A stretch of 64,000 nucleotides of DNA from Escherichia phage DT57C. Positions 1 through 22,936 of this stretch are shown piece by piece. The stretch's first letter is position 1. The number at the start of each line of letters is the position of its first letter. Location of the stretch: the sequence record NC_027356.1; one strand, given 5' to 3'. The position numbers and the translations under genes are program-made. The notes beneath the pieces were generated by a model. That model saw only the letters and a list, made by a program, of their open reading frames with translations. It did no database searches and was not told the DNA's origin.

Positions 1-112
1 TGCGTTGCAAGTCACCAATCATAGTCTGGAGATTGATTGCCCGCTCTTTGTCACCGTGGATACGTGCTAGACTAAGCAGTCCACGAAGGGTCATTAGAAT
101 ATTTTCACCCAT
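1..112 (-). CDS. hypothetical protein, partial; start ATG at 112-110, continues past window start
   Basis: Minus-strand reading frame open from 112 to position 1; its ATG overlaps the stop of the upstream small gene (TAATG coupling). Confidence 0.3.
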   Translation of the reverse strand, partial: MGENILMTLRGLLSLARIHGDKERAINLQTMIGDLQR

Positions 113-282
113 TATTTCATCCCCAATGCTTGGTTGAAAGATTGTTCTGTCATAACTGCTGAGACTTTGGCGAAATCAAACTTTTTAGGGTTCGTAGTGA
201 TCTCAGCAACGTTGGAAGTTTTAACAGTTTTCGTAGTACGAATACCGCGAGTGTTAACACCAATAATTACAACTGATTTCAT
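112..282 (-). CDS. small hypothetical protein (56 aa)
   Basis: Hand-translated minus ORF MKSVVIIGVNTRG...QALGMK; GAGGA Shine-Dalgarno 6 nt upstream of ATG at 282; consensus promoter just upstream. Below the 60-aa cut-off of the ORF track. Confidence 0.4.
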   Translation of the reverse strand: MKSVVIIGVNTRGIRTTKTVKTSNVAEITTNPKKFDFAKVSAVMTEQSFNQALGMK

Positions 283-313
283 ATTTCGCTTCCTCTCATT
301 AATTTATGAAAGT

Positions 314-342
314 ATTATACAGAAGTTTAAGTATTTAAGCAA
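314..342 (-). promoter_or_regulatory. sigma70-type promoter (TTGCTT, 17 bp, TATAAT)
   Basis: Minus strand reads ttgctt-17 nt-tataat; conserved downstream leader. Confidence 0.55.
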
Positions 343-350
343 ATAAATTT

Positions 351-800
351 TTAAGTTTTAGTGACAGCAGGCTTATAAAATGTATGTCCCTTAATCTTGG
401 TTGTTTTCTTAAACTTCTTTGTCCAGTATGGTTTATCTTTACCACTATGGAAGTATAAGGCCCCATGTGTAGGATCTTGTGGTAAATCAACGTAGTATAT
501 CACTCTAGCTAAATTCTTGGCGGTTTGCCAAGCCTCATCGGTTTTATCAACTTTTGGTCTCTTAGATACCCAAGAGAACTGGTTAGACTGATATACTACT
601 TTACAGTAGGAATCTGGGAATTTACCGGAGTTTACACGGTTTTTAGTAACGTGTGCAATCGCCGTCATTCCCTTTATGCCCTCACCACGACTTTCGAAAT
701 AGATATTTTTAGCAATGCAATCTATTTCTTTTGCATCGTGCGATGCTTGACTACTAAAGCTGAAGGTAAGGGCAGCTACTAAAAGCAAAGCTGCCTTCAT
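351..800 (-). CDS. secreted cell-wall hydrolase, SleB-like
   Basis: N-terminal signal-peptide-like MKAALLLVAALTFSFSSQA; cell-wall hydrolase-like core (HVTKNRV...YCKVVYQ...FSW). ATG at 800 with GGAG RBS preferred over the upstream TTG in the ORF track. Confidence 0.55.
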   Translation of the reverse strand: MKAALLLVAALTFSFSSQASHDAKEIDCIAKNIYFESRGEGIKGMTAIAHVTKNRVNSGKFPDSYCKVVYQSNQFSWVSKRPKVDKTDEAWQTAKNLARVIYYVDLPQDPTHGALYFHSGKDKPYWTKKFKKTTKIKGHTFYKPAVTKT

Positions 801-805
801 TCTTT

Positions 806-1123
806 TTACTCCTGCCAATCGTATTCAATACGATTGGGGTTTTCTTTGTATCCCAAGTCAAGCAAATCATTACGCATAGTTTGCTTAGCTACGGGATTCG
901 AGGTTACTAGTACCACTTTCTTTGGTCTCTGCCCAAATTCTAAGAGTAAACGAAGAATTTGATAACCTTCCATACCATCTACAGCCAAATCGTTGTCGAA
1001 ATAAACAAAATGGCCAGTGGTATCAGTCTTATTCAGAAACTCAACAGCGGCTTCTGGGGTTCGAATGATAATGTCCATTCCGTGAAGATTACGCACATCA
1101 TCAATCAAAATATGAAAAGTCAT
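806..1123 (-). CDS. hypothetical protein, flavodoxin-like / receiver (REC)-like fold suspected
   Basis: 105 aa; HILIDDV...FVYFDNDLAVDGMEGYQIL...VVLVTSN...GYKENP resembles receiver-domain landmarks (DD, D-x-x-x-DG-E, T/S, K). GAGG RBS; promoter at 1154-1182. Confidence 0.5.
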   Translation of the reverse strand: MTFHILIDDVRNLHGMDIIIRTPEAAVEFLNKTDTTGHFVYFDNDLAVDGMEGYQILRLLLEFGQRPKKVVLVTSNPVAKQTMRNDLLDLGYKENPNRIEYDWQE

Positions 1124-1153
1124 AATAGCCTCGTTTCATCAATTTAAAAATAT

Positions 1154-1182
1154 ATTATACAGAGAACTTAATAAATTAGCAA
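1154..1182 (-). promoter_or_regulatory. sigma70-type promoter (TTGCTA, 17 bp, TATAAT)
   Basis: Minus strand ttgcta-17-tataat upstream of the 806..1123 gene. Confidence 0.55.
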
Positions 1183-1565
1183 ATACATTTTTAAATTGTG
1201 AAACTAGTAAACCGATAAACAGCCTAGGGGCGCCACAGGCCATATCTTACGAGCCATGTACCTTTGATCTAGGGTTTGAATCATCAACGAATACTTTGCA
1301 TCTTTTAGCTTTAGAAGTTTAGAAGTTTGAGTTCTTTAAACTTTTCAGCTTTCATACTTAAATGTTGATCTTTGAAGTTGTGTCGGTAATATCAACGACT
1401 CTTTGTTTTTACGTGTCAGATTAAATGTCCGATGTAATAAACATAATCTCCAATAGATTATACTTTATAGTATGGTCAGCGGTCTTATTTAACCTCGTAT
1501 TTCAACCGCTGCTGCGAGGTAAGATGCTTGGGCTTTCGTCTACCGATTTACTAGCTTTTAAATTA

Positions 1566-2204
1566 TTACTCTACTTCAATGAAAGTAGAGGCGTTAGACT
1601 CGGACAGAACAAAGTCAACATTAGTTGCAAAGTCCTGATATTCCTCGTCATGTTGTTTAATCAGCTTCTCCAGTTCCAGCGGATCAATCAAGAATGGGGT
1701 ATTCTTGAGTTCCAACAGGTTGAGCTGCATTTTAACTTCATCTTCGGAAGTTTTCTTATCGCGGGTAGCCATGCTATCCTGCAAACGCTCATATTTAGCA
1801 TCAAACTGTGCTTTCTGCGTATTAAACTTAACCGTAGCGGCATGGAACTGCTTACGCATATTAGCCAGCAACTGAGCTTTAAGCTCCATAGAACGCTTAG
1901 CTTCAATTGCTTCTGCAACAGTCATTTTACGAGAGCCAATCTCAACGATTGTTTCCGCATTGCTCTTAATCAATGCTGCTTTGATACGATCACGCTGGGA
2001 CATCATATCCAGCAGAGACTGGAAATCTGTCTTAATACGATTAGACAGATCTTCTACTTCGATTGCAGCGCCAACTACAACCTTATTTTTATCCTTACCT
2101 TCACCAACAGCGATCAGAAGCTGTTGTTCAGTAGCTTTACGGATTTTAGCTTCCAGAGATTTGATGGTTGCCAGAGCACGAGTTTTAGAGATACGAGCGG
2201 GCAT
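1566..2204 (-). CDS. hypothetical protein, predicted coiled-coil
   Basis: 212-aa ORF, K/E-rich heptad-like sequence; AGGA RBS 8 nt before ATG. Confidence 0.5.
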   Translation of the reverse strand: MPARISKTRALATIKSLEAKIRKATEQQLLIAVGEGKDKNKVVVGAAIEVEDLSNRIKTDFQSLLDMMSQRDRIKAALIKSNAETIVEIGSRKMTVAEAIEAKRSMELKAQLLANMRKQFHAATVKFNTQKAQFDAKYERLQDSMATRDKKTSEDEVKMQLNLLELKNTPFLIDPLELEKLIKQHDEEYQDFATNVDFVLSESNASTFIEVE

Positions 2205-2256
2205 TGTTTATTCCTTACATGAAGTTTAAGATTTGAATTTGTTTAAAGTTGGTCTA

Positions 2257-2439
2257 TTACAGACCCATTGCCAGTAAGGTACGCAGAACAGTATCTTTAC
2301 TGTTATCAATTTTAGGATTAACACGATTTAGCAGATCAAAGATTTTCTGGACACCTGATTGACGTTCAGCCATACGACGGATACCCAGATTACGAGTAGC
2401 TTTCTTACCATTTTTACGGACATTTTTAGATACTGGCAT
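2257..2439 (-). CDS. small basic hypothetical protein (60 aa)
   Basis: ORF with upstream consensus promoter; K/R-rich. Confidence 0.4.
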   Translation of the reverse strand: MPVSKNVRKNGKKATRNLGIRRMAERQSGVQKIFDLLNRVNPKIDNSKDTVLRTLLAMGL

Positions 2440-2468
2440 ATTTGTTTTCCTTTTGTTGTTTTCTCAAA

Positions 2469-2512
2469 TTTATGAATATATTATACAGAATTTATGAATA
2501 TATTATACAGAA
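2469..2512. repeat. perfect tandem duplication of a 22-bp unit (tttatgaatatattatacagaa x2)
   Basis: Read directly: 2469-2490 equals 2491-2512; the unit carries the -10/leader of the minus-strand promoter. Confidence 0.9.
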
Positions 2513-2530
2513 TTTTGGAGCCGGAAGCAA
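2502..2530 (-). promoter_or_regulatory. sigma70-type promoter (TTGCTT, 17 bp, TATAAT)
   Basis: Minus strand ttgctt-17-tataat; -10 lies in one copy of the 22-bp tandem repeat. Confidence 0.55.
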
Positions 2531-2531
2531 A

Positions 2532-3233
2532 TCAAATTTTCATTTTTTCGATCATAGCTGCAACACAATAGCTCTCAACTAAGGCATCGAATGCTGGGTC
2601 GTGCTTAACCGGATATATCCCGTAACGAATGGTGTCCATCTTCTCCATCTTGGCTTTTGCCCAGCTAATACCTTCGGTCTCTAGAGCCTTATAACTGTAT
2701 CCAGCTTGCATCCAGAGATTACGAAGAGATCGAACATTACCCAAATTCCAGAATTTCCACGGAACTATTTCTTCATTGGTTCCAGCATGGAAAGTGTTTG
2801 CAGAGTAGATAGTCATATCAAACTCTGGGCCATTGCCGTAATATAAAGCATTTTCGCCTAGAGCCAACTCCATAATATTTTGGGTCATAGAGAAGGCAGC
2901 ATGGTTAGAGCCGAGCTTATTAGTACAGTGATGTTTACCATCTCGAAAAGCAATCAGCTTTGGATTATGCTCATTCATAGCTTCCATAATGTGGAGAGCA
3001 GACGGACTATTTTTAGCTTGATCCATCCAGAATGCTAGAGTAGATGCCGTAACTTTAGCTCCAGAATTAAGCTGGTCTTGCACATCCAAAGTAACAAACA
3101 CTAGATCAGGGTCTTTATCAATTCCATGCATAGCCACAAAAGCGAAGGAAGGCATTGCGATATGAGTAGTACCACAATCTCCTGGAGTTCCTAGAGATTC
3201 AATATCTAACATACCAAATGGTTTTACTTTCAT
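2532..3233 (-). CDS. putative DEDDh-family 3'-5' exonuclease
   Basis: Exo I-like MLDIESLG, Exo II-like EFDMTIY, Exo III-like HDPAFDAL near C-terminus. Confidence 0.55.
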   Translation of the reverse strand: MKVKPFGMLDIESLGTPGDCGTTHIAMPSFAFVAMHGIDKDPDLVFVTLDVQDQLNSGAKVTASTLAFWMDQAKNSPSALHIMEAMNEHNPKLIAFRDGKHHCTNKLGSNHAAFSMTQNIMELALGENALYYGNGPEFDMTIYSANTFHAGTNEEIVPWKFWNLGNVRSLRNLWMQAGYSYKALETEGISWAKAKMEKMDTIRYGIYPVKHDPAFDALVESYCVAAMIEKMKI

Positions 3234-3261
3234 AACTTATCCTTTATTGTGTAGAAAACTA

Positions 3262-3498
3262 TTAAAGAGCTGTCTCTTTAATAGACTCCCACTTCTTGGG
3301 GTCTTTAAAACCAGGAAGCATATCTTCACTAACATCCCAGTTTTCTTCCGTAGAAAAGTCTGGCCATTCATTCCAGTTACCTTCCAGCTCTTCATACCAG
3401 GTATCCATTACCTCGCGATTAGAAAGTCGTGTATAGTCTCTAGCGGACTTATGAGTGCTAGCACGGTTAAAATCATTCTTTGCTACAAAATTACGCAT
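3262..3498 (-). CDS. hypothetical protein (78 aa, acidic/Trp-rich)
   Basis: ORF with GGAG RBS 6 nt upstream of ATG. Confidence 0.45.
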   Translation of the reverse strand: MRNFVAKNDFNRASTHKSARDYTRLSNREVMDTWYEELEGNWNEWPDFSTEENWDVSEDMLPGFKDPKKWESIKETAL

Positions 3499-4094: not shown

Positions 4095-4123
4095 ATTATA
4101 CGAGAATTTGAAGCGTTCAGCAA
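4095..4123 (-). promoter_or_regulatory. sigma70-type promoter (TTGCTG, 17 bp, TATAAT)
   Basis: Minus strand ttgctg-17-tataat. Confidence 0.5.
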
Positions 4124-4445: not shown

Positions 4446-4474
4446 ATTATACTAAATTAGAGGGCTTTAAGCAA
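4446..4474 (-). promoter_or_regulatory. sigma70-type promoter (TTGCTT, 17 bp, TATAAT)
   Basis: Minus strand ttgctt-17-tataat. Confidence 0.5.
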
Positions 4475-8167: not shown

Positions 8168-8196
8168 ATTATAGCAAATCAGATAGCGATTAGCAA
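8168..8196 (-). promoter_or_regulatory. sigma70-type promoter (TTGCTA, 17 bp, TATAAT) for the HNH gene
   Basis: Minus strand ttgcta-17-tataat. Confidence 0.5.
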
Positions 8197-11744: not shown

Positions 11745-11773
11745 ATTATACCAGTATATACAGTAAAAAGCAA
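11745..11773 (-). promoter_or_regulatory. sigma70-type promoter (TTGCTT, 17 bp, TATAAT) for phoH
   Basis: Minus strand ttgctt-17-tataat in the divergent intergenic region. Confidence 0.5.
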
Positions 11774-13942: not shown

Positions 13943-13971
13943 TTGCTTTCAGCCAAAAATTTATATATAAT
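13943..13971 (+). promoter_or_regulatory. sigma70-type promoter (TTGCTT, 17 bp, TATAAT) with conserved leader
   Basis: ttgctt-17-tataat then aaatttgagaggag RBS leader. Confidence 0.55.
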
Positions 13972-14492: not shown

Positions 14493-14765
14493 GTGAGGGA
14501 TTGTACAGTGTTTTTGACTGGTAATACCAGTCAAGATATGATTATTGTGGTTGGTTGCTCTAACCAAGTAATTAACTTCTACTGGGAATTATTCCCTGTT
14601 CTTAACCGTACTGCTGCGAAACTTATGGTAGTTAACTACTATGATGTATCAGTATCCAACGGTAGAACTGGAATAAATCTTCAAGATTTAAGAGCTGTTA
14701 GCTATATGCTAGAATTTAGTCCAGATCTTGAAATGTGTAAAGCCCTACAACAATTTAAGGTGTAA
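14493..14765 (+). CDS. hypothetical protein (about 90 aa), start uncertain (GTG)
   Basis: ORF with AAGGA RBS before GTG. Confidence 0.35.
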   Translation: MRDCTVFLTGNTSQDMIIVVGCSNQVINFYWELFPVLNRTAAKLMVVNYYDVSVSNGRTGINLQDLRAVSYMLEFSPDLEMCKALQQFKV

Positions 14766-22907: not shown

Positions 22908-22936
22908 TTGCTAAATGCTTAAATACTTGCTATAAT
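22908..22936 (+). promoter_or_regulatory. sigma70-type promoter (TTGCTA, 17 bp, TATAAT) in the ligase gap
   Basis: ttgcta-17-tataat then conserved leader and GGAAG RBS. Confidence 0.55.

What the first reader, a model, noticed from the sequence alone, without database searches (positions are those of the whole stretch)
806..1123. Small early protein with receiver-domain-like signature
The 105-aa product has the order of landmarks expected for a CheY-like receiver or flavodoxin-like fold: HILIDD, then FDNDLAVDGMEGYQIL (similar to the D-x-MP-x-MDG-x-E phospho-acceptor region), then VVLVTS and a late Lys (GYKENP). A stand-alone receiver-like protein made early from a strong promoter could interfere with host two-component or nucleotide signalling. 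The assignment is by eye and the protein is shorter than a canonical receiver domain.
Basis: inference. Interest (0 to 1): 0.45.

Follow-up and report, generated by a model that had tools for sequence, protein, structure and literature searches.

The report
Stand-alone cREC receiver-like phage protein
This small early gene of a T5-like coliphage encodes a stripped-down relative of bacterial receiver domains that belongs to the already described but never tested cREC family. It is more likely a small phosphate-cleaving enzyme than a signalling decoy.

Summary
It is the ortholog of phage T5 gene T5.084 (99% identical).

It matches Pfam PF20274, cREC_REC ("cyclic-phosphate processing Receiver domain"), at E 9.2e-15 and 55.5 bits against a cut-off of 27. 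It gives no hit to the canonical Response_reg model.

Across 107 diverse relatives, D8, D9, R21, D43, D45 and G53 are invariant, and T/S74, N76 and R11 are nearly so.

So the fold call is right and the acidic pocket is there. The protein is nevertheless not a canonical phospho-relay receiver. The family was defined in 2021 and predicted to be a phosphoesterase for 2',3'-cyclic or ADP-ribose-derived phosphates, and the held literature contains no experimental test of that.

I confirmed an RNA ligase-cREC-sirtuin operon in an rV5-like phage. In this window cREC sits next to a cell-wall hydrolase gene, and the sirtuin/HAD module found in related phages has been deleted.

Verdict: already known family, function untested, modest interest.

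The parts
806..1123 (-). cREC gene: 105-aa stand-alone cyclic-phosphate-processing receiver-like domain, ortholog of T5.084/T5p082/ORF079
1097..1102 (-). Codons of D8 and D9, the acidic pair after strand 1 (equivalent to CheY D12/D13)
   Evidence: Invariant in 107/107 diverse relatives. Codons read.
989..997 (-). Codons of D43-N44-D45, the DxD motif after strand 3. D43 aligns with the CheY D57 phospho-acceptor and D45 with N59 (the D+2 position)
   Evidence: D43 and D45 are invariant. Position 44 is H in 63% and N in 34% of relatives. hhalign register with CheY (weak).
896..904 (-). Codons of T74-S75-N76 after strand 4. T74 aligns with CheY T87 and N76 with the T+2 position
   Evidence: T/S74 in 107/107 and N76 in 106/107 relatives.
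1061..1093 (-). Strand 1-strand 2 loop that replaces helix alpha1. It carries R11 (codon 1091-1093), D17 and R21 (codon 1061-1063)
   Evidence: R21 in 107/107, R11 in 100/107, D17 in 96/107. No helix between strands 4-7 and 18-20 in either model.
1129..1132 (-). Shine-Dalgarno GAGG, 5 nt before the ATG
   Evidence: Read directly from the sequence.
1154..1182 (-). Sigma-70 promoter-like site TTGCTA-17-TATAAT of the T5 early-promoter class, 30 nt upstream of the ATG
   Evidence: The pattern TTGCT-N18-TATAAT occurs 13 times in the window against 0.17 expected, always in the direction of the genes and only in the first 23 kb.
351..800 (-). Downstream gene in the same transcription unit: SleB-like cell-wall hydrolase with an N-terminal signal-like sequence. 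It starts 5 nt after the cREC stop codon
   Evidence: PF07486 at E 2.4e-25. Annotated CDS in DT571/2. The next early-type promoter lies only at 342..314.
815..837 (.). Perfect 10-bp hairpin inside the last ten codons of cREC, immediately upstream of the ribosome-binding site of the hydrolase gene

Best explanation
The ORF is a genuine, conserved early gene of a T5-like phage. It encodes a minimal stand-alone cREC domain, a receiver-like Rossmannoid fold. Helix alpha1 is replaced by a 10-residue loop and helix alpha5 is missing. The receiver acidic pocket (D8, D9, D43) and the strand-4 Thr (T74) are kept. Family-specific invariant residues are added: D45 two positions after the acceptor Asp, plus R11, R21 and N76.

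Most likely it is an enzyme and not a signalling module. I propose a small, probably Mg2+-dependent phosphoesterase that uses the receiver/HAD-type aspartate pocket. In that scheme D43 is the nucleophile or metal ligand, D45 is the general acid/base as in the DxD motif of HAD phosphatases, and R11/R21 take the place of the missing lysine in binding phosphate. The substrate would be a phosphorylated nucleotide or an RNA end, for example a 2',3'-cyclic phosphate or an ADP-ribose-derived cyclic phosphate. The role would be phage RNA-end healing or removal of a host nucleotide signal early in infection.

Shown here: gene, family membership, fold, conserved residues, promoter class, and gene context. 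Inferred: catalysis, metal dependence, substrate and biological role.
For: Family membership: PF20274 at 55.5 bits against a cut-off of 27. Public sources already name T5-like orthologs 'cyclic-phosphate processing receiver domain-containing protein'.

Catalytic-type conservation: in 107 representatives that are 26-63% identical to the query, D8, D9, R21, D43, D45 and G53 are 100% conserved, T/S74 100%, N76 99%, R11 93% and D17 90%. All sit at or just after the C-terminal ends of the strands or in the strand 1-strand 2 loop.

RNA-repair context, verified independently: in the rV5-like phage MaxBurger a cREC (PF20274, E 9.8e-15) with the same DDxR / DNDLG / TSNP signature lies between a T4-type RNA ligase (PF09511) and a sirtuin. 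A kinase (AAA_33) and a metallophosphoesterase are transcribed divergently, and a tRNA cluster lies 4 kb away. That sirtuin is 57% identical to the sirtuin of T5-like phages.

Published prediction: PMC7824862 and PMC9503650.

From established knowledge: receiver and HAD active sites are superposable (Ridder & Dijkstra 1999), and HAD phosphatases, including the T4 Pnkp 3'-phosphatase, use a DxD nucleophile and acid/base pair.
Against: - No experiment exists for any family member. PMC9503650 calls the family 'experimentally uncharacterized', and my literature searches found nothing newer.
- The immediate context in this window is not RNA repair or NAD metabolism. The neighbours are a SleB-like hydrolase and genes of unknown function.
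- tblastn finds no RNA ligase or polynucleotide kinase homolog anywhere in the genome (best E 0.54).
- The sirtuin/HAD_SAK_2 module that relatives carry has been deleted in this window while cREC is intact.
- In my own sample of 22 non-redundant loci no neighbouring Pfam family recurred in more than 3 loci.
- The T5-type and rV5-type cRECs are too divergent to align by BLASTP, so transferring context between them is weak.
- The register with CheY rests on a weak hhalign match (E 0.013, probability 3%) plus the fold match.
- One close homolog, P0021, has Y in place of D9.
Confidence: 0.5

Rival explanations
1. Non-catalytic binder. The receiver-like pocket binds a nucleotide signal or a host protein without turnover, acting as a sponge or an inhibitor as several small phage anti-defence proteins do.
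For: It is a small (105 aa), stand-alone, early-expressed protein. In other phages it is embedded among small accessory genes of unknown function. In one sampled locus a neighbour matches the Thoeris inhibitor family Tad3. The lysine that canonical receivers use in phosphoryl chemistry is missing.
Against: Six invariant positions (four Asp, one Arg and one Gly), plus a T/S and an Asn, across relatives as low as 26% identical is the pattern of a catalytic centre more than of a binding surface. The family also occurs inside an enzyme operon for RNA-end processing.
Confidence: 0.2
2. One reading: a phospho-acceptor decoy that takes phosphoryl groups from host histidine kinases or acetyl phosphate and so disturbs two-component signalling.
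For: The receiver fold and the equivalents of D12/D13/D57/T87 are present. Such pockets can in principle autophosphorylate from small-molecule donors (established knowledge of receiver domains).
Against: There is no helix alpha1 or alpha5, so the usual kinase-docking surface is missing. There is no K109 equivalent and no PF00072 match. No histidine kinase appears in the near-identical DT571/2 phage genome or among the 25 most frequent of the 76 Pfam families matched by 150 neighbouring ORFs. The family definers report that it never co-occurs with histidine kinases (PMC7824862). An invariant Asp at D+2 would favour rapid loss of the phosphoryl group over a stable signalling state (inference).
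Confidence: 0.07
3. A Toprim-like metal-dependent nuclease. The acidic residues after strand 1 and the DxD after strand 3 bind Mg2+ and cleave phosphodiester bonds in nucleic acid, rather than processing terminal or cyclic phosphates.
For: The arrangement of acidic residues after strand 1 plus DxD after strand 3 on a Rossmann-like sheet resembles the Toprim signature (established knowledge). The DD and DxD motifs are invariant.
Confidence: 0.08

Closest known systems
cREC family (Pfam PF20274 cREC_REC; Iyer, Anantharaman, Krishnan, Burroughs & Aravind 2021, PMC7824862; Iyer et al. 2022, PMC9503650)
   Same: Full-length HMM match above the curated cut-off. About 100 aa and stand-alone. Receiver-like fold. 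Invariant DD and D(x)D aspartates. Phage-borne. No histidine kinase partner.
   Different: The T5-type subgroup has N rather than the majority H at position 44 and A rather than G at position 47. Here the gene is not in an NAD/ADP-ribose or RNA-repair neighbourhood but is co-transcribed with a SleB-like hydrolase. This phage has lost the sirtuin/HAD module.
Canonical response-regulator receiver domains (CheY, Pfam PF00072)
   Different: No PF00072 hit. Helices alpha1 and alpha5 are absent. No K109 equivalent. Asp is invariant at D+2. The invariant arginines R11 and R21 are extra. No kinase partner and no output domain.
HAD-superfamily phosphatases, including the 3'-phosphatase domain of T4 polynucleotide kinase-phosphatase and the 'Swiss-army-knife' HAD (PF18143) of T5-like phages
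   Same: Works-like only. A DxD pair with a Thr/Ser and an acidic metal-binding pair, arranged as in the receiver pocket. A proposed role in healing RNA ends.
2H phosphoesterases (for example LigT, viral 2',5'-phosphodiesterases)
   Same: The published prediction gives cREC the same job: opening 2',3'- or 1''-2''-cyclic phosphates.
   Different: Unrelated fold and catalytic residues (two HxT/S motifs versus aspartates).

Membership tests
cREC (PF20274) | Match to the family HMM above the curated gathering score | tested here: met
   55.5 bits against a cut-off of 27, E 9.2e-15, residues 4-87 on profile positions 2-86 of 88.
cREC (PF20274) | Receiver-like Rossmannoid fold | tested here: met
cREC (PF20274) | Conserved aspartates at the receiver active-site positions | tested here: met
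   D8, D9, D43 and D45 are invariant in 107 relatives and present in this protein.
cREC (PF20274) | Never part of a histidine kinase two-component system | tested here: met
   No histidine kinase is annotated anywhere in the near-identical DT571/2 genome. None appears among the 25 families shown of the 76 matched by 150 neighbouring ORFs (only the first 25 families are shown).
cREC (PF20274) | Gene-neighbourhood or fusion link to NAD/ADP-ribose-processing or RNA-repair genes | tested here: not met
   In this window the neighbours are a SleB-like hydrolase and genes of unknown function, and the sirtuin/HAD_SAK_2 module is deleted. The link is met in a relative: an RNA ligase-cREC-sirtuin operon in the rV5-like phage MaxBurger. 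This is a contextual tendency of the family and not a sequence criterion.
cREC (PF20274) | Cyclic-phosphate phosphoesterase activity | not testable with these tools
   Predicted only. PMC9503650 states the family is experimentally uncharacterized.
Canonical receiver domain (PF00072, CheY-like) | Match to the Response_reg HMM | tested here: not met
   No PF00072 hit at E<=1. A profile of 107 relatives against PDB sequences gives receiver domains only at E 0.04-1.5.
Canonical receiver domain (PF00072, CheY-like) | Five-strand, five-helix (beta-alpha)5 architecture | tested here: not met
   Only three helices (23-32, 53-62, 77-89). A loop at 8-17 replaces alpha1 and there is no alpha5.
Canonical receiver domain (PF00072, CheY-like) | Active-site quintet D12, D13, D57, T87, K109 | tested here: not met
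   Four of the five are present (D8, D9, D43, T74). The K109-equivalent column (N95) and the nearby K93 are not conserved.
Canonical receiver domain (PF00072, CheY-like) | Phosphotransfer from a histidine kinase or a small-molecule donor | not testable with these tools
   Needs biochemistry.
HAD phosphatases | HAD fold with DxDxT after strand 1, squiggle/flap, and a motif-III lysine | tested here: not met

The most novel reading that the evidence does not exclude
cREC would be the first receiver-fold domain shown to act as a free-standing enzyme on a non-protein substrate. It would be a minimal aspartyl-phosphatase or cyclic phosphodiesterase with HAD-like DxD chemistry. T5-like phages would make it early to destroy a host immune nucleotide signal or to heal nuclease-cut tRNA ends, independently of the sirtuin/HAD module, since this phage keeps cREC after losing that module.
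Probability: 0.3. Interest if true: 0.6.

Novelty: already known. Interest (0 to 1): 0.3.

Why it matters
The family is large. It has 408 clusters at 50% identity and more than 5,000 at 90%, almost all from phages and metagenomes. It has a specific published functional prediction, but none of the PDB sequences searched belongs to it and no experiment has been reported. T5 is a classic, genetically tractable phage and its cREC is a 105-aa stand-alone protein behind its own early promoter, so it is a convenient entry point for testing that prediction. A positive result would add a new enzyme type to phage counter-defence or RNA repair, and would show a receiver domain recruited for catalysis instead of signalling. 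As a genome-scan finding, however, it is a re-discovery of an annotated family.

Tried and rejected
1. Single-sequence and profile searches of PDB sequences found no solved relative. The top hit (TALE repeat protein Hax3) is a repeat artefact on the 'VxLVTSNPVG' stretch, and receiver domains appear only at E 0.04-1.5.
2. hhalign of the family against CheY gives only a weak match (E 0.013, probability 3%). I used it only for register, together with the fold match.
3. PADLOC and NCBIfam gave no hit.
4. The search for related loci with the 107-sequence alignment failed because no stretch was conserved enough. A 14-sequence subset worked but returned only 18 viral and 5 genome loci.
5. Neighbourhood enrichment over 150 ORFs from 22 loci found no recurrent partner. 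The maximum was 3 loci, for HNH and an L7/L12-like domain. SIR2, Tad3, HD_4, DUF2828 and others each occurred once. I did not work out which locus holds the Tad3 neighbour.
6. Three metagenomic contexts showed only small unannotated genes.
7. Functional coupling to the adjacent SleB-like hydrolase is rejected as a conserved feature. In Pectobacterium phage My1 cREC sits elsewhere in the module, and in phage Ace a homing endonuclease separates the two genes.
8. I first assumed the window was identical to DT571/2 and so contained Sir2 and HAD_SAK_2. Local BLAST showed this is wrong.
9. The 2026 preprint on phage phosphatases that counter RES NAD+ depletion involves Macro-domain proteins, not cREC.
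10. The afdb50 fold library was unavailable.
11. Literature searches for T5.084/T5p082 found nothing relevant.

Full report
**1.
The window carries an ATG-started ORF at 806..1123 on the minus strand.
- A GAGG ribosome-binding site lies 5 nt upstream of the ATG (sequence).
- A TTGCTA-17-TATAAT promoter-like site lies at 1182..1154.
- The pattern TTGCT-N18-TATAAT occurs 13 times in the window against 0.17 expected. Every copy points in the direction of the local genes, and all lie in the first 23 kb. The site therefore belongs to a real promoter class of the early region, which fits 'made early from a strong promoter'. That T5 early promoters are strong is established knowledge, not something tested here.

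**2. Where the window comes from.**
- Bases 1-3300 are 100% identical to Escherichia phage DT571/2, a Tequintavirus.
- The ORF is annotated there as a hypothetical protein homologous to T5.084/T5p082.
- It is 99% identical to T5 ORF079 and 100% identical to the Gostya9 copy. It is present in 492 phage records. These are essentially all T5-like phages, plus Pectobacterium phage My1 at 49.5% identity and the large T4-like Vibrio phages such as ValKK3 (Schizotequatrovirus) at about 35%.
- The stop codon is followed after 5 nt by the start of a SleB-like cell-wall hydrolase gene (351..800; PF07486, E 2.4e-25). The next early-type promoter is at 342..314. cREC and the hydrolase gene therefore form one transcription unit.
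- This adjacency is not conserved. In My1 the gene sits between the RNase H and exonuclease genes. In phage Ace a homing endonuclease gene separates the two.

**3. What the protein is.**
- Pfam gives PF20274, cREC_REC ('Cyclic-phosphate processing Receiver domain'): E 9.2e-15, 55.5 bits against a cut-off of 27, end to end on the profile. There is no hit to the canonical Response_reg model. PHROG 1479 (unknown function) matches at E 1e-29.
- NCBI and UniRef already name several T5-like orthologs 'cyclic-phosphate processing receiver domain-containing protein'.
- An exhaustive HMMER search finds 408 clusters at 50% identity with E<=0.001. Almost all of the top 150 listed are about 100 aa and stand-alone. 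A word-indexed search finds more than 5,298 clusters at 90% identity.
- The few longer relatives I checked are N-terminal extensions. One is an HNH_3 endonuclease fusion.

**4. Fold.**
- AlphaFold2 gives pLDDT 87 with an 11-sequence alignment and pLDDT 94.7, pTM 0.87 with 107 sequences. The secondary structure is identical in both: strand 4-7, loop 8-17, strand 18-20, helix 23-32, strand 39-42, helix 53-62, strand 69-72, helix 77-89, then short C-terminal strands.
- Foldseek agrees. DesR, RcsB, NarL, GacS and NtrX receivers come first at TM 0.5-0.6, although the E-values are weak (best 7.8e-3).
- Against predicted viral structures the best matches are other cREC-named phage proteins.
- Compared with CheY, the model lacks helix alpha1, which is replaced by a 10-residue loop, and lacks helix alpha5.

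**5. Conserved residues.**
I aligned 107 relatives that are 26-63% identical to the query.

| Position | Conservation |
|---|---|
| D8, D9, R21, D43, D45, G53 | invariant (107/107) |
| T/S74 | 107/107 |
| N76 | 106/107 |
| R11 | 100/107 |
| D17 | 96/107 |
| P67 | 99/107 |
| Position 44 | H in 63%, N in 34% (N here) |
| Position 47 | G in 96% (A here) |

- A weak hhalign match to CheY (E 0.013) agrees with the spacing of secondary-structure elements. It maps D43 to D57 (the phospho-acceptor), D45 to N59 (D+2), T74 to T87, N76 to E89 (T+2) and N95 to K109.
- Four of the five receiver active-site residues are therefore conserved.
The pocket is the most conserved part of the family.

**6. What is known about the family.**
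- cREC was defined by Iyer et al. 2021 (PMC7824862) as a divergent receiver domain. It is never found with histidine kinases and is linked to NAD/ADP-ribose-processing and RNA-repair genes. The authors proposed that it cleaves cyclic phosphates such as 2',3'-cyclic RNA ends or cyclic ADP-ribose derivatives.
- Iyer et al. 2022 (PMC9503650) repeat this. They describe sirtuin-centred neighbourhoods containing cREC in rV5-like and jumbo phages, and a sirtuin plus 'Swiss-army-knife' HAD pair in the T5-like phage SP15. They state that cREC remains experimentally uncharacterized.
- My searches found no later work on the family and nothing on T5.084.
- No member has a solved structure detectable by sequence.

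**7. Independent check of the contextual claim.**
- The sirtuin of DT571/2 has homologs at about 57% identity in rV5-like phages (57.3% over 262 residues by BLASTP).
- Around the MaxBurger copy the gene order is T4-type RNA ligase (PF09511), then a 116-aa protein that matches PF20274 at E 9.8e-15, then the sirtuin (PF02146).
- A kinase (AAA_33) and a calcineurin-like phosphoesterase are transcribed divergently, and a tRNA cluster lies 4 kb away.
- The MaxBurger cREC does not align with the T5-type protein by BLASTP. It does share the DDxR, DNDLG, EGY and TSNP motifs in a multiple alignment.
- So the published RNA-repair context is real for one branch of the family.

**8. The context in this window is different, and weaker.**
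- tblastn finds no RNA ligase or polynucleotide kinase homolog anywhere in the genome (best E 0.54). None is annotated either.
- The window is not DT571/2 throughout. Beyond the first few kb it is about 98% identical.
- Relative to DT571/2 it lacks two segments. Together they remove most of sir2, the small gene T5.104 and three quarters of the HAD_SAK_2 gene.
- What remains is a 90-aa fusion ORF at 14493..14765 with no Pfam match.
- All the closest database relatives carry about 1.4 kb more at this place.
- cREC is thus fully intact in a phage that has lost the sirtuin/HAD module. It cannot depend strictly on that module.
- In my own sample of 22 non-redundant loci (150 neighbouring ORFs of at least 100 aa), no Pfam family recurred in more than three loci. 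SIR2, Tad3 (a Thoeris inhibitor family), HD_4 and DUF2828 each appeared once, and AAA_33 twice.
- The tRNA gene cluster of T5-like phages begins about 1 kb downstream of the cREC transcription unit. That is suggestive but not evidence.

**9. Most likely mechanism.**
- The conserved set consists of charged and polar residues at or just after the C-terminal ends of the strands or in the strand 1-strand 2 loop. This is the pattern of a catalytic centre.
- The invariant Asp two residues after the acceptor Asp recreates the DxD motif of HAD phosphatases. There the first Asp is the nucleophile and the second is the general acid/base. This includes the 3'-phosphatase of T4 polynucleotide kinase-phosphatase that heals 2',3'-cyclic and 3'-phosphate RNA ends (established knowledge).
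- Receiver and HAD pockets are known to be superposable (Ridder & Dijkstra 1999; recalled, not tested here).
- I therefore favour a small phosphoesterase that works through this pocket. It is probably Mg2+-dependent, because the receiver metal ligands D9 and D43 are kept. R11 and R21 would replace the missing lysine.
- The substrate would be a phosphorylated nucleotide or an RNA end. Which substrate is open.
- The family assignment is near certain. I rate the enzyme model at about 0.5. Any particular substrate is much less likely.

**10. Rival explanations.**
- A non-catalytic sponge or inhibitor (0.2) fits the small size, the early expression and the accessory-gene contexts. It does not fit the residue conservation.
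- A Toprim-like nuclease (0.08) shares the acidic motif logic but has no support from the fold matches.

**11. Verdict.**
It is an already described and already annotated family, so as a scan finding it is a re-discovery. What is left is an untested functional prediction in a tractable model phage, plus three modest new points. The T5-type protein lacks alpha1 and alpha5. The DxD/R/R/N signature argues for HAD-like catalysis. cREC persists without the sirtuin/HAD module. Interest 0.3.

Noticed in passing
window 14493-14765 (+), compared with L002 5806-7296: The window is not identical to DT571/2. It has lost about 1.2-1.4 kb covering most of the sirtuin gene, T5.104 and most of the HAD_SAK_2 RNA-repair phosphatase gene. 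A 90-aa remnant fusion ORF with no Pfam hit is left. All the closest database relatives (Gostya9, ESCO30, DT571/2) keep the module.
   Followed up: yes
window 815-837: A perfect 10-bp hairpin (CCAATCGTAT...ATACGATTGG) lies inside the last ten codons of the cREC gene, directly upstream of the GGAG/ATG of the hydrolase gene. On the plus strand it scores as a terminator-like site. Phage Ace has the same stem, SelmaRatti has a hairpin of different sequence at the same place, and My1 has none. It could affect translation of the downstream gene, stabilise the mRNA, or stop antisense transcription.
   Followed up: partly
L034 1985-2806 (phage SelmaRatti); protein P0029; also HildyBeyeler and H8: In some T5-like phages the cREC ORF carries a 170-aa N-terminal HNH_3 endonuclease region, annotated in GenBank as an 'intein'. 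The supposed N-extein would be only 2 residues, and the active-site motif reads DSD in place of DND. It looks more like an in-frame homing-endonuclease fusion than an intein.
   Followed up: partly
window 314-342, 1154-1182, 2502-2530, 4095-4123, 4446-4474, 8168-8196, 11745-11773 (-); 13943-13971 to 22908-22936 (+): There are thirteen exact copies of TTGCT-N18-TATAAT (0.17 expected). All point with the local genes, with the strand switch between 11.8 and 13.9 kb, and none lies beyond 23 kb. This is a clean map of the early promoter class and of the divergent early transcription units.
   Followed up: partly
window about 2468-2511: A 22-bp tandem duplication (TTTATGAATATATTATACAGAA, two copies) duplicates the -10 element of the promoter upstream of the T5.086 homolog (read).
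   Followed up: no
window 1140-1565: A 425-nt stretch between the T5.085 homolog and the cREC promoter has no minus-strand ORF of 60 aa or more, no Rfam match at E<=1 and no tRNA. Some relatives, such as HASG4, carry about 360 bp more somewhere in bases 3-3300 of the window, but I did not locate it.
   Followed up: partly
window 1566-2204 (-): The T5.085 homolog is labelled 'tail fiber protein' in RefSeq and PHROG 1491 (E 1e-81). It lies in the early region behind an early-type promoter and has no Pfam domain, so the label looks doubtful.
   Followed up: no
L035 3637-7489 (phage MaxBurger): A compact RNA-repair cassette in an rV5-like phage: a metallophosphoesterase and an AAA_33 kinase are transcribed divergently from RNA ligase, cREC, sirtuin and a 237-aa protein with no Pfam hit, next to a tRNA cluster.
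   Followed up: yes
alignment A4 (neighbours of cREC in 22 loci): One cREC neighbour matches PF25185, the type I Thoeris inhibitor Tad3 (E 2e-35). Another matches SIR2 and another HD_4. I did not determine which loci they are in.
   Followed up: no
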